From Promethearchaeota archaeon (lineage in GTDB: Archaea; Asgardarchaeota; Thorarchaeia; Thorarchaeales; Thorarchaeaceae), in assembly GCA_027031765.1 (NCBI GenBank), contig JALVPN010000172.1:1-10448 (forward strand): a stretch of 10,448 nucleotides of DNA, read 5' to 3'. The notes beneath the pieces were generated by a model, which did not search any database, was not told the origin of the DNA, and was given only the letters and a program-made list of their open reading frames with translations. Below are positions 75 to 10,448 of the stretch, one piece after another (position 1 is the first letter of the stretch; each line of letters opens with the position of its first letter). The position numbers and the translations under genes are program-made.

Positions 75-959
75 TCATTGCCGCAGGCCGGTACCAGCCT
101 GGGCCTCGACCCCCAGTGGCGTGGTGAAGGTGAGCCTGCCCTCGTCAAGGCCCTGCTGGAAGCCCTGTGGCCCGTAGAGGACCTCAAAGGGTGGTTCGAT
201 GTCGAGGAACTCGTGGTACTCGTGGGCCCACATCTTGTAGCAGCCCGGACAGTTCGTCACGATCCGTTCAACACCGAGCTCAAGGTACTTCTGGATGTTG
301 TGCTCCGCGAAGACGCGGGCGGTCTCAAAGTCCCCGGTCATGATCATCGGTGCGCCACAGCACCACTCGTCCTCACCGAGGATGGTGAAGTCCTCACCGA
401 TCTTCTCCATGACGAGGGTTGTCGCAATTGTGGCCTGGACTGGCACTGCCTTGAAGGAAGAGGCGCAACCAAAGAAGAACGCAGTCTTGGCAGCGATGCC
501 TACGCGGTCGAGGAGAGCGTCCTCATCAGGGTGCCAGTATGACCAGCCCTCAACGCGGTCCATCTGTGCCTGACCAAGGATGTTCTTTGTCTTCAGGAGG
601 GTCTCGCGTGCGGTGACAAGTGCGTCTGGCCACATGCCCTTCTTGAGGAAGTCGCCACGCAGGGCCTGGTAGACCTTGACAAAGGGGATGTCCACCTGAC
701 AGACCTCCTCGCAACCACCGCAGAGAGTGCACCCGAACACGGCATCCCGGAGGCCCTCAAGGCCCTGTGACGCTTTCAGCCGGCCCTGCATCAGCGCACG
801 CGCCAACAGCATCTTGCCTTTCCCAGAGTAGCTGTCGCGTCGCTTCACCTTGAACGTGGGACACGCACCGTGGCCGACCTGACAGAAGCTACACTGTGCA
901 CAGGTGAAAGGGATTTCCCGGAGACCATACTGTTCAAGGACGGGGAACCTCATGTCCAT
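75..959 (-). CDS. HdrD/GlpC-like Fe-S oxidoreductase (2x[4Fe-4S] plus one CCG domain), apparently C-terminally truncated
   Basis: The translation from ATG 959 (or 953) contains CAQCSFC...CP and CTLCGGCEEVC ferredoxin-type motifs, then CCG-domain motifs FFGC, EWCCG and VTNCPGC. It ends at TGA 75-77 before the expected second CCG domain (YHDPC). The ORF-track extension 960-1271 does not look like this family. Confidence 0.85.
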   Translation of the reverse strand: MDMRFPVLEQYGLREIPFTCAQCSFCQVGHGACPTFKVKRRDSYSGKGKMLLARALMQGRLKASQGLEGLRDAVFGCTLCGGCEEVCQVDIPFVKVYQALRGDFLKKGMWPDALVTARETLLKTKNILGQAQMDRVEGWSYWHPDEDALLDRVGIAAKTAFFFGCASSFKAVPVQATIATTLVMEKIGEDFTILGEDEWCCGAPMIMTGDFETARVFAEHNIQKYLELGVERIVTNCPGCYKMWAHEYHEFLDIEPPFEVLYGPQGFQQGLDEGRLTFTTPLGVEAQAGTGLRQ

Positions 960-996
960 CAACGCCACAGACCAGTCATCACGGCGGTCAGCACAG

Positions 997-1068
997 CAGA
1001 CGGGCCGCCCTAGGGCGTCACGCAGAGAAATGCAGGTAAAATACGTTTCCTTCTTGCAGTACGCACCG
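997..1068. repeat. 72-bp direct repeat, copy 1 (copy 2 at 3128-3199)
   Basis: Manual ungapped alignment to 3128-3199 gives 64/72 identities. The copy is intergenic and lies 38 nt upstream of the HdrD-like start on the minus strand. Confidence 0.95.
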
Positions 1069-1303
1069 GTGCATTGAGGAGCAGAAAGACCGCCCCACCT
1101 AGTATACGAAACTCTGTACAAAGGCCAAGTCCTGTAGCCTTGGGCCAGAAGGGGGCCACCACGGCGAAGTCGTAGATACCGGGACACTCGAGGGTTTCTG
1201 TGATGTCGCAGCTCCGGACACGGGGGACTATTTGCAGGTCGCTCTCTACGCCACCAACGTGAAATATGCACGCACTACAATGGGTGCTGCGGAGTAGGTT
1301 TTG

Positions 1304-1349: not shown

Positions 1350-2252
1350 TCACTGTGACCGCGAGGGCGTTGACTCAAGGTCATCAGATTGGGGCGAATC
1401 ATCCACGTATCTCGACTCATGGAGCGGCCAGCGATCCAAGACCTCGTCAAGCACGTCGCGCTCCGTAGGATGGTCGTACTCAGTAATGTGCCCGGGTATT
1501 AGAAGGCTGGTCACAGCATGCAGTTGTTCTGGTGGGGGCATATCTCTCGGTTCGGCAGCAAGCTGTTTCTGAATCCTCGCCGTGATGTAGTCAAAGTACT
1601 TTGTCCGTTCTTGGACCTCCGGGTTCCTGAGTGCTCCTTCAGTCGGTTGGAATGAGTGCGCAACGCGGACGACCATGTAGTCAGGTTGCTCGTAGGGGAT
1701 GTCCGGGTGTTCGGGCACCTTTGGCACGTAGCCGACATACATGATTTTATACTCACCAGAATATGGCGCAGTAAGCACCTTTACATTGCTCTCTCCCTTG
1801 ATGAGTCCTGCCGCCATACAGATGAGTCCAGGAACAGCAAGTATGAGGGAAGAGAAGCCGCCGGGCGGGCCCAACCAACCCAAGAATGACAGCATGCCAA
1901 TCCCGCTAACAATCGCTCCCAAGACAACAAGGACTGACCCCAAGCCGATTTCCGATACGTTTTTCGCCATTGTTAGCTTGACGCTTGGGGAGCCTGACAT
2001 TGTTCCCGCATAGATGTCGCCGTGTTTCGTATGCCTGACCTCATGCCGTTCGTCACCGACTTCTACGCCTGCATCCTGCAATAGGAAGGCAAGTTCCCTG
2101 TGGAAGTGGTCAACCGGTCTGAACCTCGTCTTTATGTCTGTGAACTCGTAGAAGAACGGATGCCTCAACATCACCTGTCGTAGACTGAGCTCGTCTGAAA
2201 CATCCGCCCTCCATTTCATCTTTCGACTCGTCTTTTTCATGTCCTCTGTCAT
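1350..2252 (-). CDS. Hypothetical membrane protein (300 aa, central two-helix Gly-rich hydrophobic hairpin)
   Basis: Long ORF with AGGGGAGG SD-like sequence just upstream of the ATG. Two hydrophobic segments (IGLGSVLVVLGAIVSGIGMLSFLGWL and FSSLILAVPGLICMAAGLI) are flanked by soluble regions. No family recognised. Confidence 0.8.
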   Translation of the reverse strand: MTEDMKKTSRKMKWRADVSDELSLRQVMLRHPFFYEFTDIKTRFRPVDHFHRELAFLLQDAGVEVGDERHEVRHTKHGDIYAGTMSGSPSVKLTMAKNVSEIGLGSVLVVLGAIVSGIGMLSFLGWLGPPGGFSSLILAVPGLICMAAGLIKGESNVKVLTAPYSGEYKIMYVGYVPKVPEHPDIPYEQPDYMVVRVAHSFQPTEGALRNPEVQERTKYFDYITARIQKQLAAEPRDMPPPEQLHAVTSLLIPGHITEYDHPTERDVLDEVLDRWPLHESRYVDDSPQSDDLESTPSRSQ

Positions 2253-2311
2253 GAAACTGATTCCTCCCCTTCAACGGACAAAGGAATGCAGGCGCTGCCG
2301 TCGAATCGTCC

Positions 2312-2318
2312 TATATTA
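2312..2318 (-). promoter_or_regulatory. Putative TATA box (TAATATA) for the 1350-2252 gene
   Basis: AT-rich heptamer about 60 nt upstream of the ATG in a GC-rich background. Confidence 0.35.
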
Positions 2319-3127
2319 GTCTAACTCGGCTGGACATCGCTGAATGCTTCATTGAAGCCCAAATTGAGCTGGCGTAGCTTGCATCACATGGAGGGGCTGT
2401 GGGCCACGGCCCATTTACGTGGACTTCTGGATAGCCTTTCCGACTCAACAAGTGTATACCAGTCGAAGGGCAAGAAAGAAACAGTCCCCTACAGTGGAAA
2501 AGCGGAGTCCGCGCGTATGTGGGTCTCTTCGTGCCTTCGCACACGCGGGCCCGACAAGAAGACACCGAACTCCGATGCAACATGCAACCGACCTAGAAGC
2601 GATTCTCACCAGAACAGGGCGGAAAGCACTACTCTCAAGGCCACTCTGACAAAGCGTCAGGAAAAGTACAACATTGCCCTGAGGGATGACAGACAACACG
2701 CACGAGTCGGTGTTGACCTCCTTGCAAAGACCCCATTCTTTGTGAATACATGGGATGTCGCAAGAGATGCCGCTCGATATTTCGACCCGTATGGAGGCAC
2801 ACAGATGGTGGTAGGTCTCTTGATGCAGTGTGCTGGACTCTTCCCGTAGCCGGCTGCAAGGGTCCCCCTTCCATGAAGCATGCCTACCTTGACAGTCATG
2901 TGAGATGCTCCGCCGGGCTGGGCCGTCGGTCAGTCCCATTGACAGCTACAGGGCTCTGGCTGAGCAATATATGCGTGCCTCTTGACGGGCGGTCAGCAGG
3001 GTCTGTTGACATGCTGAGGGACACGATGGACGAGGCGTCCGTCGCACAGGAGCACGACCACGCAGGCGCACCTGAGGAGTCGCATCAACGACATCAATAT
3101 GGTATGCGGTGTCACGACACTAAGATA

Positions 3128-3199
3128 CAGACGGGCCGCCCAAGGCCGTCAGACAGAGAAATGCAGGCAAGATACGTTTCCTTCTTGCAGCACGTACCG
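3128..3199. repeat. 72-bp direct repeat, copy 2
   Basis: 64/72 identical to 997-1068, in the same orientation. Confidence 0.95.
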
Positions 3200-3270
3200 A
3201 CCGTGCCACACACCAGCAGTAGCCTCTGGGCCCGCCAGTTGCCCTGACAGACCCCCGTACACAGTAGACG

Positions 3271-3286
3271 CAAGGAAGTCTTATAC
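3271..3286 (+). promoter_or_regulatory. Putative BRE/TATA (CAAGGAAGT-CTTATAC) for the 3373 operon
   Basis: Purine-rich stretch followed by CTTATA, about 87 nt upstream of the ATG. The same CTTATA core occurs at 7908. Confidence 0.4.
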
Positions 3287-3359
3287 AGGCCCTCTGCGGA
3301 AGGTCGGGACAAGTGGCATAGCGTTCACGCTACCGGGGGCCATCTCAGGTCGAGTCCAG

Positions 3360-3367
3360 GGAGGTGA
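3360..3367 (+). promoter_or_regulatory. Shine-Dalgarno GGAGGTGA
   Basis: Perfect SD ending 5 nt before ATG 3373. It supports 3373 over the GTG at 3364, which lies inside the SD. Confidence 0.8.
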
Positions 3368-3372
3368 GGCCG

Positions 3373-4602
3373 ATGGCCAGCTCCGTGTTCGAGGACGAAA
3401 GGGTCAGGCTCTTTGACTGGAAAGTGATAGTGGCGGTAGCCATAATATACTCGATGAATGCGTTCCTACTCGAGGGTGCGAGCAGTCTGTTCCCCCACGA
3501 GGAGCGTGTGACGATTGTCGTGCCTGCATTTGCCTCCATCGTCTTTGGCCCAGTGATTGGAGGCCTGGGCACAGGGTTCGGGAACCTGCTCCTCGACATC
3601 ATCGACAAGTACGTCCTGTCAGACGAGGGGCTTGCTGCGCGCCACGTGCTGGGCTTCTTTGCCAACATGGTGGGTGCGATGGTTGTCGGCCTGTACTCCC
3701 GCAGGACCGTGATTGGTCCGGACGACCGGATATTCACGTGGGAGAGGATACTACAGGCCATAAGGAACACCCTGGCATCAGTCCTCGGCCTCGCTGTGGT
3801 CACGGGTGTGATGATAGGTTACGGGCGGTGGCTGTTGTCCTTTGCCGGGCTCGACACCTACACCTTCGAACAGGGCTCGACCCTTGCCGGGATCATAGTC
3901 ACGAGCAACGGCTTCGTCCTGCTGGTCGCAATGGTGCCACTCCAGCTGGCGTTCCTGTGGGTAGAGAGGCGGCGGGCACGGACATACAGGGACCAGCTCG
4001 AAGAGTCCAGGGCACTGTCAAAGGTGGGCGGCGTGCGTGGAGCACCAGTGCGTGTAGAGTCGTTCAAGGAGCAGGGCAAGGGCTTTGTCCTGCGGCGCTG
4101 GTCAACTGTGAGACTGAAAGTGCGCAACCTGCTCGACATCCCGATGCGTTACCGTGTGGAGGTGCTGGCACAGGACCACGTGGACCCGAACGTGTTCTAC
4201 ACCGAACTCATGACACCCAATGGTGTGGACGTCATAGACCTCCAGGTCTACCCATTCGACGATGCTGAGCGGGTCATCAGACTGGTGTTCCGGCCATGGG
4301 TCGAGAGCATGGACATGCTGCGCGACGTGTTCGAGGACGACCGGCACTTCGCCTACGAGTATACGTACAACGTCCTGTTGCCGGGGAACCGGCGTTTCAG
4401 GGTACTCGTATCAATCGTGGGCATCATGGCACTGATTGTGGCCGTTGCGCAGGCCGTCCGGAGCATGCAGGACGTTGCCACGGGCGTCGCAGCGTCCAGT
4501 GGTTCCCTAGCATTCATGGTGACCGTAGGGGTTGTGGTCGCTGAGTTGCTATTCGTGTTCCTGTGGTACCAGTACAGGAAGCGTCAAGAGGGGGTGGCGT
4601 GA
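3373..4602 (+). CDS. Membrane protein: ECF S-component-like ~6-TM N-terminal domain, soluble beta-rich (Ig-like) domain and C-terminal TM hairpin (409 aa)
   Basis: The motif PAFASIVFGPVIGGLGTGFGNLLLDII resembles the ECF S-component A..FGP..G...G..GNLL.D pattern. About 6 hydrophobic segments precede a polar region (~4000-4370) and two more TMs. Strong SD. Confidence 0.8.
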   Translation: MASSVFEDERVRLFDWKVIVAVAIIYSMNAFLLEGASSLFPHEERVTIVVPAFASIVFGPVIGGLGTGFGNLLLDIIDKYVLSDEGLAARHVLGFFANMVGAMVVGLYSRRTVIGPDDRIFTWERILQAIRNTLASVLGLAVVTGVMIGYGRWLLSFAGLDTYTFEQGSTLAGIIVTSNGFVLLVAMVPLQLAFLWVERRRARTYRDQLEESRALSKVGGVRGAPVRVESFKEQGKGFVLRRWSTVRLKVRNLLDIPMRYRVEVLAQDHVDPNVFYTELMTPNGVDVIDLQVYPFDDAERVIRLVFRPWVESMDMLRDVFEDDRHFAYEYTYNVLLPGNRRFRVLVSIVGIMALIVAVAQAVRSMQDVATGVAASSGSLAFMVTVGVVVAELLFVFLWYQYRKRQEGVA

Positions 4603-4603
4603 G

Positions 4604-5554
4604 GTGGACGACGAGAGACGAGACTGGGAGGAACAACTGACACAGCCAGAACAGCCCGCACCAAGGGGCACTGCACCTGATGACACTGGCAGAGAGAAGG
4701 GCGTGCTCGCTGCTGAACGCCCCGAGACCGCGAACGTCGTGCAAGACAGCAGCGCCATGCGGGTCTTCAGGTCCATACTGGACGTTTCCATGGTGGTAAT
4801 CGCCGGGGCGGTCGCCTACGTCTACTTCGTACAGGACGCGGCCCCTGAAGTAAGGGCCCAGTTCGCAGTCACCATGGGCGGGTTCTTCATCGTGCTAATC
4901 GTACTCGGTCTGCTCATCGTGTGCGAGGGGTGGCAGGGCCGGGACGTCATCAGAGACGTCACACATGAGCGCGGTGAGATTGCACACCTCGGCCCATACT
5001 CCGGCAAGCGCGGCATCCTTGACATAGGTGTCGACCAGCCGTTCGTGCAGTACCACGCGACACCACTGACACTCCGGATCCGCAACATCTCCGACAGCGA
5101 GGGGATTAGAGTGCGGTTCCACTCGATGGACCACATATCACCCAGCAGCATCGACCTGCCAATACCACCGGGCGCCGAGGAGACCATCCACGTCCACGTC
5201 GTGCCGATTGCCATTGGCGAGCGCGACATGTCAATCGAGCTGGCAGACCTGTTCGACGCGGAGGGGCGCCTGATCCCCAAGTACGAGGCGAACACACTCG
5301 CTGTCGAACGCTTCACATACTTCGCCCGTGAGCCGGCATTCGGTGGGATAACGGCAAGCCAGATGAGGCTGCTCAAGACGCTCGCCTCCGTTGCGACCGC
5401 CCTCGTGGTGGGCTCCGGCTTCATACTGGCGTTGTTCGGGGAGGCCCTCGGCGGGATGGAACAGGTGATAAAGACCTATGTCCCGATGCTCGTTATCCTC
5501 CAGGTGCCGGTGTTCTACGTCTACTTCACCCTGAGGAACAGGCTGCCGACCTAG
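4604..5554 (+). CDS. Membrane protein: 2 TM, beta-rich domain paralogous to that of the upstream gene, then 2 TM (316 aa)
   Basis: GTG 4604 lies 1 nt after the upstream TGA, with GAGGGGGTGG as SD. Hydrophobic hairpins flank a domain that aligns by eye with the upstream protein. Confidence 0.8.
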   Translation: MDDERRDWEEQLTQPEQPAPRGTAPDDTGREKGVLAAERPETANVVQDSSAMRVFRSILDVSMVVIAGAVAYVYFVQDAAPEVRAQFAVTMGGFFIVLIVLGLLIVCEGWQGRDVIRDVTHERGEIAHLGPYSGKRGILDIGVDQPFVQYHATPLTLRIRNISDSEGIRVRFHSMDHISPSSIDLPIPPGAEETIHVHVVPIAIGERDMSIELADLFDAEGRLIPKYEANTLAVERFTYFAREPAFGGITASQMRLLKTLASVATALVVGSGFILALFGEALGGMEQVIKTYVPMLVILQVPVFYVYFTLRNRLPT

Positions 5555-5669: not shown

Positions 5670-5732
5670 GTCACGCACGGGGTCGTGGCAGACCGAGAGC
5701 ACTCTCGACCACAGAGATGGAGACGTTTGCTC

Positions 5733-7076
5733 ATGGGGCTTAACAGGCGCCAACTGGCACGGCTGGGCGAGATATTTGGTGACAGACTCATCACCGACAA
5801 GCACGAACTGGTCCTACATGGTGTCGATGTGGGCACGCTCCCGAAACAGGTCGGCTGGCTGATGAACACGAAGCCGGACGCAATCGTCCAGCCGGAGTCG
5901 CCAGAGGAGATAGCCGAGCTCTACAGGTTTGCAAATGAGGAGAGTGTGCCGGTCGTCCCACGCGGTGCAGGGACCTCCGGCTACGGGGGTGCAATCCCCA
6001 GGAAGGGCGGTATCGTTGTTGACATGAGATGGATGCGCCGCGTGCTCACCGTGGACAGAGAAGGGCTGACCATCACCGTCGAGCCGGGGATCTCGTGGGC
6101 AGACCTGCAGTTCGAACTGAACCAGCAGGGCCTCGACCTGCGCTGCTACCCGTCGTCGGGGCTCTCGGCCACCGTGGGTGGATGGGTCTCCCAGGGCGGT
6201 GACGGCATCGGCTCCCTCAAGTACGGCAACATCAACGAGAACGTCGTCGAGCTCGAAGTGGTGCTCCCGAACGGCAAGACGGTCCGGACACGGGACACTG
6301 ACCTGTTCTGCGACACCGAGGGGATACTGGGCATCATAACAAAGGTCACCCTCAAGGTCAAGCCACTCGTACCAATACGGTGCATAGTGGCGAGCTTTCC
6401 GGAGAACTACCTGATGGTCTTCGCCATGGAGAGGATCCTTGAGGAGGGGCCGCTGCCCTTCACAATCAAGTTCGAGGAGAGCAAGTACACAGACCTGAAG
6501 AAGAAGATGTGGGACAGGCCGGAACCGTTCCCGTTCCCTGTGCACCATGGTACGGTGCTCGTTGCCTACGAGGGTGACGACGAGGAGATTGAGGAAGGGT
6601 TTGAGACCGTCCGCCGTGTGGCCGCAGAGCTGAAGGGTACTGTGTATGACGAGCATGTGGCCGAACACGAGTGGGCCGACAGGTTCTATCCAATGCGTGT
6701 GAAGAAGATGGGGCCCACACTCGTCGTCGGGCAGGCCTTTGCACCACTGGAGGGGCTCGAAGGGGTACTCGATGACTTCCAGTTCGAACAGGCCTCTGCC
6801 CCCGCCGGCCTCGACGGGTACGTGACGTCGAGGACTGGCACGACCATCATGGGCTACTTCCTCGAGGACGAACGGCGCCACTTCTTCATGCTGTCGTGGT
6901 CGCAGAGCTTCATCATATTCAAGCTCGCCCAGAAGTACGGTGGCCATGTCCACAGTACCGGTATATGGTTCGCCAACTATGCAGAACAGTACTTCGGCAA
7001 GCGACGCCTGGCACGGATCCGGGCGGCAAAGCTGAAGTTCGACCCGAAGGAGATATCGAACCCAGGGAAGGTATTC
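5733..7076 (+). other. FAD-binding PCMH domain plus FAD-oxidase C-terminal domain of the fusion
   Basis: Family motifs from PDAIVQP to NPGKVF; about 448 aa, a typical size for GlcD-like proteins. Confidence 0.9.
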
Positions 7077-7673
7077 GCATACTGGCTGCCCCTGATACTC
7101 CGGGTCGGCAAGTACTTCATGTGGGTGGCCTACGACGCCTTCAGGAACGGCTTCGGACGGATTGCGCCGGCCCTCCTGCGCTGGCTCCAGAACGTGCCCC
7201 CACTCAAGTGGCTCCTGAGGTGGGGACGTGCGTACAGCCCGTGGCCCGTCCAGTACGGTCTCGGCTGCTGCATGGTGGACGGTGCTGCTGCGGTGGCCTC
7301 CCGGTGGGACCTTGAGAGGTTCGGCATGCTGCCACTGTTCGGGCCGCGACAGTGCGATGTCCTGTGGATATCGGGCTCCCTGACCAAGAAGATGGCCCCT
7401 CGTCCCCGCCGGATCTATGAACAGAGGCCAGAGCCCAAGTTCGTCATATCGTTCGGCCAGTGTGCCGCCAGCGGCGGGCTGTTCTGGGACGGGTACTCCC
7501 TGATGACCCCACCCGACAAGGTGGTACCTGTCGATGTCTACCTGCCGGGCTGCCCACCAAAGCCCTCCGACTTCATGAGGGCGCACCTGATACTACAGAA
7601 CAAGATCCGGGCAGGCACGACACACTGGCAGCGCAAGTACGAGGCCCAGGACGCTATGGGGGTCATACGGTAG
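5733..7673 (+). CDS. Fusion protein: GlcD/D-lactate-dehydrogenase-like FAD-linked oxidoreductase (VAO/PCMH family) plus NuoB/FpoB-like [4Fe-4S] subunit (646 aa)
   Basis: One uninterrupted ORF. N-terminal part: PDAIVQP..., PRGAGTSGYGGAIP, VEPG, SATVGG, EGILGII, FDPKEISNPGK. C-terminal part: WPVQYGLGCC, DLERFG, PRQCDVL, TKKMAP, GQCAASGG, VPVDVYLPGCPP. ATG 5733 has a GGAGA SD; the ORF-track GTG 5685 is less likely. Confidence 0.92.
   Translation: MGLNRRQLARLGEIFGDRLITDKHELVLHGVDVGTLPKQVGWLMNTKPDAIVQPESPEEIAELYRFANEESVPVVPRGAGTSGYGGAIPRKGGIVVDMRWMRRVLTVDREGLTITVEPGISWADLQFELNQQGLDLRCYPSSGLSATVGGWVSQGGDGIGSLKYGNINENVVELEVVLPNGKTVRTRDTDLFCDTEGILGIITKVTLKVKPLVPIRCIVASFPENYLMVFAMERILEEGPLPFTIKFEESKYTDLKKKMWDRPEPFPFPVHHGTVLVAYEGDDEEIEEGFETVRRVAAELKGTVYDEHVAEHEWADRFYPMRVKKMGPTLVVGQAFAPLEGLEGVLDDFQFEQASAPAGLDGYVTSRTGTTIMGYFLEDERRHFFMLSWSQSFIIFKLAQKYGGHVHSTGIWFANYAEQYFGKRRLARIRAAKLKFDPKEISNPGKVFAYWLPLILRVGKYFMWVAYDAFRNGFGRIAPALLRWLQNVPPLKWLLRWGRAYSPWPVQYGLGCCMVDGAAAVASRWDLERFGMLPLFGPRQCDVLWISGSLTKKMAPRPRRIYEQRPEPKFVISFGQCAASGGLFWDGYSLMTPPDKVVPVDVYLPGCPPKPSDFMRAHLILQNKIRAGTTHWQRKYEAQDAMGVIR
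7221..7673 (+). other. nuoB: NuoB/FpoB-like domain of the fusion with all four N2-cluster cysteines
   Basis: Cys codons at 7266 and 7269 (tandem CC), 7461 (GQC) and 7551 (PGCPP). Tandem CC is characteristic of NuoB, whereas group 4 hydrogenase small subunits have CxxC. Confidence 0.9.
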
Positions 7674-7956: not shown

Positions 7957-8427
7957 ATGAAGCTTCGCGAAGACAGTGACCCCTACTGCATGCTATGGGT
8001 CGGGGTACTCCTATTGGGTGCCTACTACTTCAATTTCCTCTACCGGTCGTATACACTGGCCGGCTACATCACCACGATGACCCCGTACCTCATGCCACTT
8101 ACTGTCATCCCACTGGTACTGGTGGTCACCCTCATCGGGTACCTGCGTCCGGCCAGGAGCAGGGTCAAGCCGACAATGCTCGCCCTCTCAGCCGTACTCG
8201 GGCTGTTCATCGTCGTCTTCTCGCTGCTCGTCCCACCGGACATGGGTGGGGGCGTGTTCCTTGCCAGCTGGGGGATTGGCGCTGCACTCCTCACGGCCGG
8301 CGGCTTCTCAATAATGCACCCCCTCGAAGACAGTGTGACACCCGGTATGATGGACGTGTCGGCGCTACACTATGGCCCACCAGCCGAGGAGGCCCCGTCA
8401 GGAGAGGCCCCCGAACAGACAGGCTGA
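7957..8427 (+). CDS. Small 4-TM hypothetical membrane protein with acidic/Pro-rich tail (156 aa)
   Basis: Four hydrophobic segments, a basic central loop (LRPARSRVKP), GGAG/AGGA SD-like sequence and a TATA-like element upstream. Confidence 0.8.
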   Translation: MKLREDSDPYCMLWVGVLLLGAYYFNFLYRSYTLAGYITTMTPYLMPLTVIPLVLVVTLIGYLRPARSRVKPTMLALSAVLGLFIVVFSLLVPPDMGGGVFLASWGIGAALLTAGGFSIMHPLEDSVTPGMMDVSALHYGPPAEEAPSGEAPEQTG

Positions 8428-8647
8428 CCGGTCTCACGGCACCCCGGTCTCAGCGGCAGCGCACAGTTGACCGTACGGGAGTGCGGCTGTGCCTGCCTGC
8501 AACTCCCGGAAGGAAGACGGGGGACAATCGGTATCGACGACAGACACTCAGCCGTGGGCCACATACATCGCTCAGGACCACTACACTAGCACGGCAGTCC
8601 GGCAGTAGTCCGGGCCTGCAGTCCCAGTCCCAGCCGTGCCGTGAGCC

Positions 8648-9007
8648 CTACTCTCTGAGCCAGCTGAGCGCTGCGAATGACAGGAGCAGGCCAAAGGCAA
8701 CCCATGCGAACATGACGATACCCATGAGGTCCGTGAAGAGGGCGAGGTCGAGGTAGCCGTGCACGCCACCAATGAGGCCTGACAGCACGGTGAGCATGAC
8801 CCTGCCCGGGCGCGAGGCTGCAAGGGCAAGCCCGTATGTAGAGGAGACCAGCAACAGGCCGGACACGAAGAGGATGTAGTTGAAGACAGCGCCGGGCGTG
8901 ATCGACATGAGCACGACCCAGAAGTACGCGCCGAGAAGGCCCGCACCTATGAGGAGCACCAGATAGTAGAAGAAAGCACCTTCCTCAGAGACCGTCAGTT
9001 GAACCAC
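8648..9007 (-). CDS. Small 4-TM hypothetical membrane protein (~119 aa), probable paralog of 7957-8427
   Basis: Four hydrophobic segments and a basic central loop (SRPGR). Start taken at GTG 9007 (uncertain by a few codons). The upstream ORF-track extension overlaps its own promoter. Confidence 0.8.
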   Translation of the reverse strand: MVQLTVSEEGAFFYYLVLLIGAGLLGAYFWVVLMSITPGAVFNYILFVSGLLLVSSTYGLALAASRPGRVMLTVLSGLIGGVHGYLDLALFTDLMGIVMFAWVAFGLLLSFAALSWLRE

Positions 9008-9066: not shown

Positions 9067-9159
9067 AGAGGAGCTGCATGCCCTCTGTCGGCCCGGTCGT
9101 CACGTGGGGGCCTGCGGTGCTCCGGAGACCGACCACAGGAGCACCTCACGGGGTCGAAG

Positions 9160-9172
9160 TGTTTTTATTATG
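9160..9172 (+). promoter_or_regulatory. Putative TATA (TGTTTTTATTATG) for the nuoA-nuoJ operon
   Basis: Strongest AT-rich island upstream of nuoA, about 185 nt before the start. It shares TGTTTTTAT with 5661-5669. Confidence 0.5.
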
Positions 9173-9353
9173 CAAGTCAGTACGCGCGAGTCCAACCACA
9201 GGACTGCAGGGCCTGACCCAAGCGGTGAGGACTGCAACCCAAGGACAAAACATGGCCCGTGGTATGACGCCGGACGGAAGGCACTGGTCGCACACAGGGG
9301 TTGCCGGGCCTGACACCATGGCGTGGTGCTGGCGGGCAGGGTGGTCTTCGAAT

Positions 9354-9794
9354 ATGAGGCTGTTCATGGACTTCGTTCCCGTCCTGGTCTGGGCCCTCCT
9401 GGCGGCGGCGCTTGTGATCGTCATGCTCCTGGCCTCCTGGGTGCTGCGGCCGCATGTGCTCCAGAACTCGGAGAAGACCGCCACCTATGAGTGCGGCGAG
9501 GAGCCCATTGGGCCTGCAAGGATTGCATACCCGTACAACTACATTGTCTATACGGTCCTGTTCGTAGTTGTCGATGTGCTGACTGCGTTCCTGTGGCTGC
9601 TCTCAGCGACACCCCTGAGGACATCTCAGGCCGTTGTCTGGCAGGTGTTGCTGTTCATCCTTGTCATCATGTTCGGCATCGGGTATGCCGTGCGCCGCGT
9701 ACCGGAGACCATCCTCTCAGGAGAAGAGACGCTGCGCCTATACCGCCAAGCAAAGGCCGCAGTGGCCGACAGTGAGGCAGGAGGCACCGAGTGA
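9354..9794 (+). CDS. nuoA: Complex I-like subunit A (NuoA/FpoA/ND3)
   Basis: Three TMs and the loop motif EKTATYECGEEPIGPAR, followed by YNYIVYTVLFVVVDV. Start at ATG 9354 or 9366. Confidence 0.9.
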   Translation: MRLFMDFVPVLVWALLAAALVIVMLLASWVLRPHVLQNSEKTATYECGEEPIGPARIAYPYNYIVYTVLFVVVDVLTAFLWLLSATPLRTSQAVVWQVLLFILVIMFGIGYAVRRVPETILSGEETLRLYRQAKAAVADSEAGGTE

Positions 9795-10448
9795 TGCAAG
9801 GGGTCGAAGCACTGTTCGAACAGGTAGAGTTCATAGCAATCACCGTGGTGGTGCTTGTCCTGGCATACCTTGCCCTGGAACACAGGGAGATTGTATACGC
9901 TGCGTTCTTCTTCGGCATGATGGCGGCCACCGTTGCGGGGTACTACCTGCTGCTTGAGGCCCCGTTCGTTGCAGGGATGCAGATTGCAGTGTACACTGGC
10001 GGCATAAGCGCCCTCATAGTGTTCGGTGTGCTGCTCCTACCACGTGCCCAGGACTCCACGCTCGAGAGGTTCAGCCCCCCCATGAAACGGCGCCTCGGCC
10101 TGCTGATATCAGTGGTCGTGACATTCTTCGCTGCAGTCCTCGGCCTCACCTTCCAGTGGTACCAGTCCTTCCCGGCAGGCAGGCCCGAGGCCTCACAGGA
10201 CCTCCAGGGACTGGCGGAGTGGCTCTGGGGCAGCCATGGTATCTACGTACAGATTGTTGCCCTCATCATACTGACTGCTCTGGTCGGCTCGATTGCCATC
10301 ATGCGGATGGAGAAGGCCGAACGGCTGCGGCCCATTGTGGCCGAGTTCGGCACCGAGACAGGGGTGGTCGGTGGACAGGACGGTGATGGCCCAGACAGTG
10401 GAGGGAATGGGGGGTCAGACAACGGTGACGGGGAAGGAGGGAGAGGCG
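9794..10448 (+). CDS. nuoJ: Complex I-like subunit J (NuoJ/FpoJ/ND6), open at the window end
   Basis: My translation from ATG 9794 (TGATG overlap with the nuoA stop) reads MQGVEALFEQVEFIAITVVVLVLAYLALEHREIVYAAFFFGMMAATVAGYYLLLEAPFVAGMQIAVYTGGISALIVFGVLLLP..., including the NuoJ A.FVA..QI.VY.GGI motif. It has 5 TMs and no stop before 10448. It is absent from the supplied ORF track. Confidence 0.9.
   Translation, partial: MQGVEALFEQVEFIAITVVVLVLAYLALEHREIVYAAFFFGMMAATVAGYYLLLEAPFVAGMQIAVYTGGISALIVFGVLLLPRAQDSTLERFSPPMKRRLGLLISVVVTFFAAVLGLTFQWYQSFPAGRPEASQDLQGLAEWLWGSHGIYVQIVALIILTALVGSIAIMRMEKAERLRPIVAEFGTETGVVGGQDGDGPDSGGNGGSDNGDGEGGRG

What the first reader, a model, noticed from the sequence alone, without database searches (positions are those of the whole stretch)
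5733..7673. FAD-linked oxidoreductase fused in frame to NuoB: a complex I-like pump with a built-in flavin electron-input (or output) module
Seen: one ORF joins a full GlcD/VAO-family FAD domain (5733-7076) to a NuoB-type domain that keeps all four N2 Cys ligands, about 1.7 kb upstream of nuoA-nuoJ. Established: complex I-like enzymes differ mainly in the input module (NuoEFG for NADH, FpoF/FqoF for F420H2, ferredoxin for headless 11-subunit forms), which normally feeds NuoB through NuoI, and NuoB is normally a stand-alone subunit. Inference: here a flavoprotein is tethered at the terminal cluster, which could couple oxidation or reduction of an unknown substrate directly to ion translocation, or replace the quinone-site acceptor. 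I do not know of a characterised example but cannot confirm novelty without a search.
Basis: partly seen in the sequence, partly recalled or inferred. Interest (0 to 1): 0.92.

Follow-up and report, generated by a model that had tools for sequence, protein, structure and literature searches.

The report
Flavoprotein fused to complex I NuoB
In one family of Thor-type Asgard archaea, the last iron-sulfur subunit (NuoB) of a head-less, four-pump complex I-like enzyme is made as one protein with a membrane-associated flavoenzyme; that flavoenzyme pairs with an HdrD-like iron-sulfur protein and sits beside quinone-prenylation genes, which is a real, conserved and apparently undescribed way of bolting a redox enzyme onto a respiratory ion pump.

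Summary
Window 5733-7673 (+) is one 646-codon gene: FAD_binding_4 + FAD-oxidase_C, a conserved 45-residue amphipathic linker, then a NuoB domain with all four N2 cysteines. It is not an artefact. An independent contig spans the junction, and 47 protein clusters and 52 of 76 sampled family genomes carry the same 646-aa protein. It is the only complex I-type NuoB in this genome; the other NuoB-like gene belongs to a separate [NiFe]-hydrogenase locus. This scan has reported the same fusion on other Thorarchaeota DNA (at least 10 notes).

New here:
- The flavin domain lacks the His-His-Glu site of D-lactate/glycolate dehydrogenases.
- Its nearest relatives are fused to HdrD-like Fe-S domains, and once to a quinone-reactive NrfD membrane subunit.
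- A MenA-type prenyltransferase, a polyprenyl synthase and a GGR-type reductase lie 1.4-28 kb away in at least 31 genomes, and also beside unfused orthologues.
- The partner NuoD has Met in place of the quinone-binding Tyr.

Best reading (about 0.5): a flavo-iron-sulfur enzyme working at the level of the membrane carrier, tethered at the foot of the pump. A direct wire to N2 is not shown. Substrate and electron direction are unknown.

The parts
5733..7673 (+). FAD-NuoB fusion gene, 646 codons plus stop
   Evidence: Single ORF. Start fixed by 12 orthologues, all 646 aa without indels.
5874..6290 (+). FAD_binding_4 domain, with the PRGAGTSGYGG and GGDGIGSLKYG motifs
   Evidence: Pfam PF01565, 1.5e-42. 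Motifs invariant in alignment A1.
6381..7073 (+). FAD-oxidase_C (cap) domain of a distinct subfamily: 'LEDER' and 'GGHxHSTG' stand where LDHD/GlcD have HxGDGNxH and GEHG
   Evidence: Pfam PF02913, 2.9e-12. Alignment to mouse LDHD. Subfamily alignment. Model pLDDT 90.9, fold ties LDHD and AGPS.
7071..7208 (+). Conserved aromatic/basic amphipathic linker (residues 447-492), predicted helical and not a transmembrane helix
   Evidence: Highest 19-residue Kyte-Doolittle mean is 1.3; hydrophobic moment 1.2-1.8. Conserved in fused and unfused orthologues. The homologous tail motif in the wider subfamily is sometimes followed by true TM helices.
7209..7622 (+). NuoB (Oxidored_q6) domain of complex I type, with the tandem CC motif
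   Evidence: NCBIfam NuoB above cut-off. Best solved relatives are NdhK, PSST and Nqo6 at 1e-41, against MbsJ 1e-30 and MbhJ 6e-27.
7266..7271 (+). Codons of Cys512-Cys513, N2 ligands
   Evidence: Aligned to Nqo6 C45/C46.
7461..7463 (+). Codon of Cys577, N2 ligand
   Evidence: Aligned to Nqo6 C111.
7551..7553 (+). Codon of Cys607, N2 ligand
   Evidence: Aligned to Nqo6 C140.
7957..8427 (+). orf156, a small protein with about four TM helices and no known family. It lies directly after the fusion gene in fusion-bearing relatives and is not found beside the unfused orthologues.
   Evidence: tblastn 47-49% identity at the same position in G004 and G009; none in G001/G016 loci. No Pfam hit. Hydropathy.
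9354..9794 (+). nuoA. The ORF as listed starts at 9078, but homology and relatives begin near Met 9354.
   Evidence: Pfam Oxidored_q4, 4e-18, at residues 114-206 of the ORF. Relatives match from residue 91-94. Candidate starts.
9791..10447 (+). nuoJ, running off the contig end. The operon continues on contig C12 with nuoK-C-D-H-I and four antiporter-like genes.
   Evidence: Pfam Oxidored_q3, 9e-24. C12 content. Same gene order on long contigs of G004 and G009.
75..959 (-). HdrD/GlcF-like Fe-S protein (two ferredoxin-type Cys motifs plus a CCG domain), the predicted partner of the FAD domain. This copy lacks the second CCG domain; it diverges from orthologues 130 nt from the contig start.
   Evidence: Pfam CCG and Fer4_8. 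Orthologues are 63-65% identical only up to their residue about 308. Complex model for the G004 orthologue pair: ipSAE 0.88, best control 0.00.

Best explanation
The gene encodes the only complex I-type NuoB of a ferredoxin-type (NuoEFG-less) complex I-like ion pump with four antiporter-like subunits. Its N-terminus carries a complete FAD domain from an uncharacterised, membrane-associated branch of the GlcD/LDHD/AGPS flavoenzyme clade.

Shown:
- The fusion is real and under strong constraint.
- The operon has no other nuoB.
- The FAD domain keeps its FAD-binding motifs but lacks the 2-hydroxyacid dehydrogenase metal site.
- The flavoprotein and an HdrD-like 2x[4Fe-4S]+CCG protein belong together. 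They are neighbours in fused and unfused forms, they are one polypeptide in the nearest outside relatives, and a complex model supports binding.
- This flavo-Fe-S module recurs next to membrane redox parts and quinone genes: a MenA-type prenyltransferase with a polyprenyl synthase and a GGR-type reductase; an NrfD fusion with cytochrome c-like, NrfC-like and UbiE genes; and tails that end in TM helices.

Inferred:
- In Thorarchaeia the complex I-like Q-module takes the role that NrfD or a TM tail has elsewhere. The amphipathic linker would lay the flavo-Fe-S enzyme on the membrane surface at the foot of the peripheral arm, beside NuoH/NuoA.
- There it would exchange electrons with the pump through a prenylated quinone-like carrier, or the carrier's binding site. 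The locus would then be a compact chain: ferredoxin -> NuoI -> N2 -> carrier -> CCG/Fe-S -> FAD -> unknown substrate, or the reverse.

The substrate, the direction of flow and the identity of the carrier are unknown.
For: Reality and constraint:
- 12 orthologues, 75-81% identical, no indel; 47 clusters; 52 fused of 76 family genomes, 11 or more genera.

Operon and absence of a second nuoB:
-. The other Oxidored_q6 genes are hydrogenase small subunits. NuoD' of the second locus has RICGICSATH and DPCFSC.
- Genomes without the fusion (g2, g4, g7, g13) also lack this NuoD type; they only have 31-34% matches, the hydrogenase type.

Flavin domain is not an LDH or GlcD:
-.

HdrD-like partner:
- Divergent or co-directional neighbour.
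- Rosetta-stone fusions P0053, P0055, P0057, P0058 and P0069 at 35-41% identity.
- Complex model of the G004 orthologues: ipSAE 0.88, best of 3 controls 0.00. That mark was reached by 58 of 80 solved and 2 of 110 mismatched pairs, and these counts hold only roughly because my own alignments were used. Runs agree in at least 95% of contacts and partner pLDDT is at least 88. The interface joins the first [4Fe-4S] motif of the partner to the FAD pyrophosphate loop and to the subfamily motifs FYPMRIK and DER.

Membrane and quinone link:
- Amphipathic tail shared with unfused forms and with TM-tailed relatives.
- NrfD-FAD fusion P0052, in an operon with cytochrome c-like, NrfC-like, HdrD-like and UbiE genes.
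- MenA-type prenyltransferase: TIGR00751 117.8 bits against a cut-off of 102.15. It occurs with a polyprenyl synthase and a GGR-type reductase next to the module in G004, G009, G001 and, in another Asgard family, G063.
- The MenA-like gene is on the same contig 1.4-28 kb from the fusion in at least 31 genomes. In this genome the orthologues lie on small contigs C2, C10 and C176.

Point of attachment:
- The NuoB domain aligns to Nqo6 from its residue 22-23.
Against: - No head-group pathway for a naphthoquinone was found. There is no MqnA/D in this 95%-complete genome, and no MenB or MenD above cut-off in it or in 12 relatives. The carrier is therefore hypothetical.
- The partner NuoD has Met where quinone-reducing complex I has the essential Tyr (Nqo4 Y87); His38 is kept. 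Its best solved relative is MbsL of the sulfur-reducing MBS complex. That fits a non-canonical acceptor site at least as well as a quinone site.
- The MenA-like gene also occurs in genera without the fusion (g2, g7, g13), so the linkage is not exclusive.
- No cofactor distances could be measured; the full-length model was poor (pLDDT 56).
- The position of the NuoB N-terminus at the membrane foot rests on my memory of solved structures.
- The complex model used the G004 orthologues, because the window's HdrD-like copy is cut by the contig end.
Confidence: 0.5

Rival explanations
1. Direct wire. The FAD domain and the HdrD-like clusters dock on NuoB/NuoD and pass electrons straight to or from cluster N2. 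They would replace the quinone as donor or acceptor, so that oxidation or reduction of a soluble substrate drives the pump. This resembles the proposed Fpo-like + HdrD enzyme of Methanomassiliicoccales.
For: - NuoD has lost the quinone Tyr and resembles MbsL, whose complex reduces a soluble substrate at the proximal cluster.
- No quinone head-group pathway was found.
- The covalent link to the N2 subunit is conserved without a single indel.
- A preprint reports peripheral heterodisulfide-reductase-like domains on MBH-like complexes of other Asgard lineages (10.1101/2024.07.04.601786).
Against: - The attachment is at the NuoB N-terminus through an amphipathic, membrane-type linker.
- The same flavo-Fe-S module elsewhere is joined to the quinone-reactive NrfD and lies beside MenA/UbiE-type genes.
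- Unfused orthologues work without any such complex.
- No distance to N2 could be computed.
Confidence: 0.2
2. Carrier biosynthesis or maintenance. The FAD/HdrD-like pair is an anaerobic oxidoreductase acting on the prenylated compound made by the neighbouring MenA-like, polyprenyl synthase and GGR-type genes, for example a ring or side-chain oxidation or reduction. The fusion would only place it, or dump its electrons, at the pump.
For: - The link to the prenylation trio is kept even where the complex is missing (g2) and in another family, where a phytoene-desaturase/HpnE-like gene joins the cluster.
- The fold ties with alkyl-DHAP synthase, which binds lipid substrates.
Against: - A low-flux biosynthetic enzyme gives little reason for a permanent 1:1 fusion to a respiratory subunit, or for this degree of conservation.
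- Relatives sit in respiratory-type operons with cytochrome c-like, NrfC-like and NrfD genes.
Confidence: 0.12
3. Non-catalytic flavin relay or scaffold. Having lost the 2-hydroxyacid site, the FAD domain no longer binds a small substrate. It would serve as a 2e-/1e- converter, an assembly factor or a regulatory cap for the complex, in the way GlcE serves in GlcDEF.
For: - The catalytic His-His-Glu is absent.
- The subfamily-specific motifs lie in the modelled Fe-S interface and not in an obvious substrate site.
Against: - The whole cap domain is conserved, with invariant polar residues (H405, H407, E378-R381).
- The same subfamily exists as a free enzyme with its own Fe-S partner.
Confidence: 0.1
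4. Artefact: a chimeric assembly, or a frameshift that joins two genes.
For: One relative (G158) has the gene in two frames.
Against: - The G158 case is a single indel inside the cap domain, not a domain boundary.
- 47 independent clusters, long contigs up to 3.2 Mb, an independent contig across the junction, and identical length in all orthologues.
Confidence: 0.01

Closest known systems
Canonical NuoB / Nqo6 / PSST / NdhK (N2 subunit of complex I and NDH-1)
   Same: Oxidored_q6 domain above curated cut-offs, tandem-Cys N2 ligand set, and about 1e-41 to NdhK, PSST and Nqo6. Encoded with nuoA, J, K, C, D, H, I and antiporter-like genes.
   Different: It carries a 490-residue FAD domain plus linker in place of the short N-terminal segment. 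It is separated from the operon by a 4-TM gene. Its NuoD partner lacks the quinone Tyr.
Head-less 11-subunit complex I-like enzymes (cyanobacterial NDH-1, Fpo-like complexes), including the proposed Fpo-like + HdrD ferredoxin:heterodisulfide enzyme of Methanomassiliicoccales (my knowledge of the literature, not read here)
   Same: No NuoEFG or FpoF in the locus. An HdrD-type CCG protein is functionally tied to the complex.
   Different: The tie here is covalent and goes through a flavoprotein. The HdrD-like protein is modelled on the FAD domain, not on the pump. These organisms are not methanogens.
'2M' complex I with an extra antiporter-like subunit (Chadwick et al. 2018, ISME J; cited from memory and from the reference list seen)
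   Same: Four Proton_antipo_M subunits after nuoI: 507, 737, 516 and 530 aa.
   Different: Gene order is A-J-K-C-D-H-I-M'-L-M-N, nuoB is fused to a flavoprotein, and the host is archaeal.
Flavoprotein + Fe-S/CCG dehydrogenases: GlcDEF glycolate oxidase, quinone-dependent lactate dehydrogenase LdhGH, GlpABC, YdiJ
   Same: VAO-fold FAD subunit plus a 2x[4Fe-4S]/CCG partner. The partner's best NCBIfam hits are TfrB, LdhH, GlpC and GlcF, all below cut-off. Relatives exist as single FAD-CCG polypeptides.
   Different: It fails the GlcD and YdiJ cut-offs and lacks their catalytic metal site. It has its own membrane tail and is fused to NuoB.
Transmembrane redox complexes with NrfD-type membrane subunits and cytoplasmic HdrD-like proteins (Qrc, Hmc, Tmc, DsrMKJOP)
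   Same: The nearest outside relative, P0052, is an NrfD-FAD fusion in an operon with cytochrome c-like, NrfC-like and HdrD-like genes. The partner also hits TmcB, HmcF and DsrK models, below cut-off.
   Different: In Thorarchaeia the membrane module is a complex I-like pump, not NrfD.
MBH-like complexes of other Asgard lineages with a peripheral heterodisulfide-reductase-like domain (preprint 10.1101/2024.07.04.601786)
   Same: An Hdr-type redox module on an Asgard complex I/MBH relative.
   Different: That work concerns [NiFe] group 4 enzymes of Asgardarchaeia, Baldr-, Hermod- and Odinarchaeia. It mentions no flavoprotein-NuoB fusion and no Thorarchaeia complex.

Membership tests
NuoB (complex I N2 subunit) | Oxidored_q6 domain scoring above the curated NuoB cut-offs | tested here: met
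   NF005012 171.1 bits against 116; TIGR01957 164.2 against 142.7.
NuoB (complex I N2 subunit) | Four Cys ligands including the tandem CC. Group 4 hydrogenase small subunits have CxxC instead. | tested here: met
   GLGCC, GQCAASGG and PGCPP align with Nqo6 C45/46/111/140. The genome's hydrogenase-type copy has CNGC.
NuoB (complex I N2 subunit) | Encoded with the other core subunits and needed by them, with no second copy | tested here: met
   Order A-J-K-C-D-H-I plus 4 antiporter-like genes, with no nuoB, in G004, G009 and on contig C12. The other Oxidored_q6 genes are hydrogenase subunits.
NuoB (complex I N2 subunit) | Works with a NuoD that binds quinone through conserved His and Tyr (Nqo4 H38, Y87) | tested here: not met
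   His is kept (QHVSAHG). Tyr is replaced by Met (ERLCML against PRMDYL), and this is conserved in three genera.
GlcD / D-lactate dehydrogenase (2-hydroxyacid dehydrogenases of the VAO fold) | FAD_binding_4 + FAD-oxidase_C architecture and fold | tested here: met
   Pfam. TM-score 0.81-0.83 to mouse LDHD, but 0.79-0.81 to AGPS as well.
GlcD / D-lactate dehydrogenase (2-hydroxyacid dehydrogenases of the VAO fold) | Score above the curated family cut-off | tested here: not met
   TIGR00387 glcD 140.7 against 567.9; PRK11230 90.8 against 897.
GlcD / D-lactate dehydrogenase (2-hydroxyacid dehydrogenases of the VAO fold) | His-His-Glu metal site (mouse LDHD H398, H405, E442; residue numbers from my memory of the 8jd* papers, motif read from the aligned chain) | tested here: not met
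   GHVGDGNFH aligns with DGYVTSKNGVT. There is no conserved His in residues 355-385, and the Glu position is variable.
Flavo-Fe-S (FAD + HdrD/GlcF-like CCG) dehydrogenase | Dedicated 2x[4Fe-4S]+CCG partner that binds the flavoprotein | tested here: met
   Conserved neighbour. Fused in relatives. Complex model ipSAE 0.88 against control 0.00 for the G004 orthologues, which is a model and not a measurement.
Fpo-like + HdrD type enzyme | HdrD bound to the complex I-like core and reducing CoM-S-S-CoB | not testable with these tools
   Only the FAD:HdrD-like contact was modelled. The substrate of the CCG site is unknown.
'2M' (extra-pump) complex I | Fourth antiporter-like subunit in the operon | tested here: met
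   Four PF00361 genes on C12 and in G004 and G009.
MBS/MBX sulfur-reducing complex | MbsJ/MbsL-type subunits with an Mrp-like membrane module | tested here: not met
   NuoD is closest to MbsL (4e-60), but the NuoB domain is closer to NdhK/Nqo6 (1e-41) than to MbsJ (1e-30), and the membrane arm is of the NuoA/H/J/K/L/M/N type.

The most novel reading that the evidence does not exclude
The Thorarchaeia enzyme is a new class of respiratory machine. A complex I-like pump's terminal cluster is served by a covalently attached flavo-iron-sulfur (FAD + HdrD-like) module, either directly or through a captive prenylated carrier. Ferredoxin oxidation would then be coupled to reduction of a soluble organic or disulfide acceptor (or the reverse) with four pumping modules and without a free quinone pool.
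Probability: 0.2. Interest if true: 0.9.

Novelty: new variant of a known kind. Interest (0 to 1): 0.75.

Why it matters
Complex I relatives are thought to differ mainly in the module that docks at the far (NuoI) end of the peripheral arm. Here a redox enzyme is fused at the opposite, membrane-proximal end, to the subunit that holds the last cluster. The partner NuoD has lost the canonical quinone tyrosine.

The finding gives genetic proof of a physical association between a flavo-Fe-S dehydrogenase or reductase and a pump in Asgard archaea, the closest known relatives of eukaryotes. It links that module to quinone-prenylation genes in a lineage usually described as fermentative. It also offers a concrete candidate for the 'unidentified terminal acceptor or donor' of head-less Asgard complex I (compare PMC9723677).

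The module's recurrence with NrfD, with TM tails or with NuoB suggests a general plug-in principle for membrane redox modules. This can be tested by structure determination and by quinone analysis.

Tried and rejected
- Full-length AlphaFold2 model on 14 near-identical orthologues: poor (pLDDT 56, NuoB part below 50), so not used for geometry.
- No tool gave coordinates, so FAD/Fe-S to N2 distances could not be measured.
- Sequence overlap between the window end and contig C12: none. The join rests on synteny only.
- RNA evidence: no RNA holder listed. The second run of the same study laid nothing.
- Literature: no paper with NuoB+GlcD+fusion relevant to this, none with Thorarchaeota+NuoB, and none with Asgard+complex I+lactate dehydrogenase+HdrD. 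The archaeal fusion survey PMC11237513 names only nuoBC(D) fusions in its main text; its supplements were not read. The Asgard papers read do not mention the fusion.
- The second CCG domain of the window's HdrD-like gene was not found elsewhere in the assembly; only 30-40% identical paralogues turned up.
- orf156 against the 156-aa ORF next to the G063 homologue: no similarity.
- NCBIfam gave no named family for the FAD subfamily or its fused relatives.
- Fold search could not separate an LDHD-like from an AGPS-like cap.
- The G158 'split' gene is a frameshift inside the cap domain, not a natural fission.
- I considered that the unfused g2 protein, which ends ...PPLKWLRNR where NuoB helix 1 begins, is a truncated former fusion. 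This is suggestive but undecided; there is no NuoB remnant downstream.
Full report
**1. Observation**

The window is the whole 10,448-bp contig C172 of a 2.95-Mb, 229-contig, 95%-complete genome. Database names of near-identical proteins place it in Thorarchaeota.

ORF 5685-7673 (+) has no stop. Twelve orthologues from other genera all start at the Met equivalent to ATG 5733. All are exactly 646 aa, 75-81% identical, and have no indel.

- Pfam finds FAD_binding_4 (1.5e-42), FAD-oxidase_C (2.9e-12) and Oxidored_q6 (8e-23).
- NCBIfam NuoB models pass their curated cut-offs.
- The four N2 ligands (C512, C513, C577, C607) align with Nqo6 C45/46/111/140.

**2. Not an artefact**

- A 1313-nt Logan contig from a hydrothermal-vent metagenome run covers 6092-7404 with no difference. 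It may come from the source sample.
- More tellingly, 47 clusters at 90% identity from NCBI, ENA, JGI and Logan have the same architecture. Nearly all are 646 aa, and some lie on contigs up to 3.2 Mb.
- In a sample of 300 Asgard genomes the fused gene is present in 52 of 76 genomes of this family (11 or more genera) and in no other family.
- An exhaustive HMMER pass over 1.84 billion cluster representatives found a single cluster with FAD + NuoB.
- NCBI simply names the protein 'NuoB'.

**3. Which complex it serves**

The genome holds two complex I-like gene sets.

- Set Y is the window (fusion, orf156, nuoA, nuoJ|) plus contig C12 (|nuoK-C-D-H-I and four antiporter-like genes), with no nuoB. 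The two contig ends do not overlap. On long contigs of G004 and G009 the order is HdrD-like <-> fusion, orf156, a variable gap, then nuoA-J-K-C-D-H-I-4x antiporter. NuoB-like sequence occurs only in the fusion gene.
- Set X (contigs C217, C127, C105) has a CNGC-type small subunit and a large subunit with RICGICSATH and DPCFSC. It is therefore a group 4 [NiFe]-hydrogenase with a complex I-like membrane arm, of the kind described for other Asgard lineages (PMC11291895).
- The remaining Oxidored_q6 genes are soluble hydrogenase subunits.

Genomes of the family without the fusion (genera g2, g4, g7, g13) also lack the Y-type NuoD. With this query they yield only 31-34% matches, which is the X type.

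One NuoF-like gene and several FrhB-like genes exist elsewhere in the genome, but none is linked to the locus.

**4. The NuoB and NuoD parts**

- The NuoB domain is closest to NdhK, PSST and Nqo6 (1e-41), not to MbsJ (1e-30) or MbhJ (6e-27). It aligns to Nqo6 from residue 22-23 ('PLKWLLRWGRAYSPWP' against 'TLEKLVAWGRSNSLWP').
- The FAD domain and linker therefore replace the short N-terminal segment. From my knowledge of the T. thermophilus structure (not measured here), that segment lies at the membrane foot of the peripheral arm near Nqo8/Nqo7, far from the NuoI end where inputs dock.
- The Y-type NuoD is most similar to MbsL of the P. furiosus MBS complex (4e-60) and then to Nqo4 (8e-57).
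- It keeps the His of the quinone site (QHVSAHG). It has Met at the Tyr87 position (ERLCML against PRMDYL) and ends in DPYPGWWDR. All of this is conserved in three genera.

**5. The flavin part**

- FAD-binding motifs are invariant.
- The best solved relatives are LctD (5e-36), mouse LDHD, a D-lactate dehydrogenase deposited under the molecule name 'Glycolate oxidase' (9qgz/9qit), and alkyl-DHAP synthase.
- A good model (pLDDT 90.9) ties LDHD (TM-score 0.81-0.83) with AGPS (0.79-0.81).
- The protein fails the GlcD cut-off.
- The hallmark HxGDGNxH and GEHG metal site is replaced by DGYVTSKNGVT...LEDER and GGHxHSTG.
- The replacement motifs ('L.DER', 'GG.PYSTG.W', 'ERFYPMRIK') define a wider uncharacterised subfamily. 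No NCBIfam model names it.

Calling this domain a lactate or glycolate dehydrogenase is therefore not justified.

**6. Linker**

- Residues 447-492 are as conserved as the domains.
- They are rich in Trp, Tyr, Phe, Arg and Lys, have a high helical hydrophobic moment, and never reach transmembrane hydropathy.
- The first helix (LPLILRVGKYF) is homologous to a tail motif (PFLRIGRKFF, PFMRIGNRIF) of unfused subfamily members. In some of those members true TM helices follow it.

The flavoenzyme was thus already membrane-associated before it met NuoB.

**7. Partner and context**

- An HdrD/GlcF-like protein (two ferredoxin-type motifs and two CCG domains in relatives) is divergent from the fusion gene in G004 and G009. 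It is co-directional just upstream of the unfused orthologue in genus g2, and adjacent in a second Asgard family.
- In this window the HdrD-like gene lies 4.8 kb away, because three membrane-protein genes are inserted (1350-5554). Its second CCG domain is lost at the contig start.
- The closest non-Thor homologues of the FAD domain (35-41% identity) are often single polypeptides of the form FAD + Fer4_8 + 2xCCG.
- A complex model of the G004 orthologues supports binding:
  - ipSAE 0.88, best of 3 controls 0.00.
  - The mark was reached by 58 of 80 solved and 2 of 110 mismatched pairs (rough, because my own alignments were used).
  - Runs agree in at least 95% of contacts, and partner pLDDT is at least 88.
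  - The partner's first [4Fe-4S] motif lies against the FAD pyrophosphate loop and the subfamily motifs. This is a model, not a measurement.

**8. A link to a membrane carrier (not found in the earlier scan notes I could retrieve)**

- Beyond the HdrD-like gene lie three further genes in G004 and G009: a MenA-type prenyltransferase (TIGR00751 117.8 bits against a cut-off of 102.15), a polyprenyl diphosphate synthase and a GGR-family reductase.
  - The same set sits beside the unfused orthologue in g2.
  - In family f16 it sits together with a phytoene-desaturase/HpnE-like gene and two antiporter-like genes.
- The MenA-like gene is on the same contig 1.4-28 kb from the fusion (mostly 1.4-3.4 kb) in at least 31 genomes.
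- In this genome its orthologues lie on tiny contigs C2, C10 and C176, so the region is simply fragmented. They are paralogues of other UbiA, GGR and polyprenyl synthase genes of the genome.
- One close homologue (P0052, 41% identity) is fused to an NrfD quinone-reactive membrane subunit. Its operon also has cytochrome c-like and NrfC-like genes, a convergent HdrD-like gene and a UbiE-type methyltransferase.
- Against a canonical menaquinone: no MqnA/D in this genome, and no MenB or MenD above cut-off in it or in 12 relatives.

**9. Reading**

The recurrent pattern is a cytoplasmic flavo-Fe-S module plugged into different membrane parts: a TM tail, NrfD, or, in Thorarchaeia, the Q-module of a four-pump complex I-like enzyme.

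- I therefore favour (about 0.5) a carrier-level enzyme tethered at the foot of the pump, exchanging electrons with it through a prenylated quinone-like carrier or its site.
It is neither shown nor excluded.
- A biosynthetic role for the carrier (about 0.12), a non-catalytic relay (about 0.1) and an artefact (about 0.01) are less likely.
- Substrate and direction are unknown.

**10. Novelty**

- No searchable paper describes the fusion.
- Related ideas do exist: head-less complex I with menaquinone and an unknown acceptor in Sif- and Jordarchaeia (PMC9723677), and Hdr-like peripheral domains on MBH-like complexes of other Asgard lineages (10.1101/2024.07.04.601786).
- This scan has already reported the same fusion on other Thorarchaeota genomes.
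- I rate it a new variant of a known kind. It would surprise a bioenergetics specialist and is directly testable.

Noticed in passing
G000 contigs C217:2-825 (-), C127:1-3352 (+), C105:8050-14086 (+): A second complex I-like gene set: nuoA'-small subunit (CNGC type) | nuoC'-large subunit (RICGICSATH and DPCFSC, so a true [NiFe] site)-nuoH'-nuoI' | split nuoJ'-nuoK'-L'-M'-N'. This is a group 4 hydrogenase with a full complex I-type membrane arm, cut over three contigs.
   Followed up: partly
window 75-1271 (-): The HdrD-like gene matches its orthologues only up to their residue about 308. The second CCG domain is missing, and the sequence diverges 130 nt from the contig start. This is probably an assembly break; no high-identity remainder exists elsewhere in the genome.
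   Followed up: yes
window 1350-5554: Three genes for membrane proteins of no known family (300 aa on the minus strand; 412 and 340 aa on the plus strand, the latter two with several TM segments and a central soluble part) are inserted between the HdrD-like gene and the fusion gene. In G004 and G009 that spacer is only about 0.2 kb.
   Followed up: partly
window 7995-8756 (+) and 9078-9353 (+): The 253-aa ORF that overlaps orf156 is Arg/Pro-rich and has no relatives, so it is likely spurious. The first 92 codons of the listed nuoA ORF have no counterpart in relatives, so the real start is near 9354.
   Followed up: partly
window 10340-10447 (+): nuoJ ends in a Gly/Asp/Asn-rich low-complexity tail exactly where the contig breaks. 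This is a likely cause of the assembly gap before nuoK on C12.
   Followed up: no
L039:1268-3274 (-) (G063:C6, another Asgard family): A single 668-aa protein joins NuoI-type 2x[4Fe-4S], NuoB and NuoD domains. It lies next to nuoC and an FrhB/FpoF-like gene, and is a different kind of NuoB fusion.
   Followed up: partly
L033:5758-12657 (NCBI GCA_046760505.1 contig): An archaeal operon: two cytochrome c-like genes, an NrfC-like Fe-S gene, an NrfD-FAD fusion (867 aa, 41% identical to the window's FAD domain) and a small ORF. A convergent HdrD-like gene and a UbiE-type methyltransferase lie nearby.
   Followed up: partly
relatives, e.g. G007:C62:34119-37581, G002:C18:3043-21306, G015:C8:50890-61759, G005:C27:16316-29550: Arrays of several GlcD-like paralogues (open frames of 500-600 aa, 28-46% identical to the FAD domain) lie 10-25 kb from the fusion gene in many family genomes.
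   Followed up: no
L032 (G158:C5:93232-95186): In one relative the fusion gene is in two frames because of a single indel near residue 440. This is a sequencing error or a pseudogene, not a domain fission.
   Followed up: yes
L025:8448-9941 and L026:7882-9378 (genus g2): The unfused orthologues (498-499 aa) keep the whole amphipathic tail and end ...FPPLKW(L/I)RN, exactly where NuoB helix 1 begins in the fusion. These genomes lack the Y-type complex. Whether this is the ancestral state or a truncated former fusion is open.
   Followed up: partly
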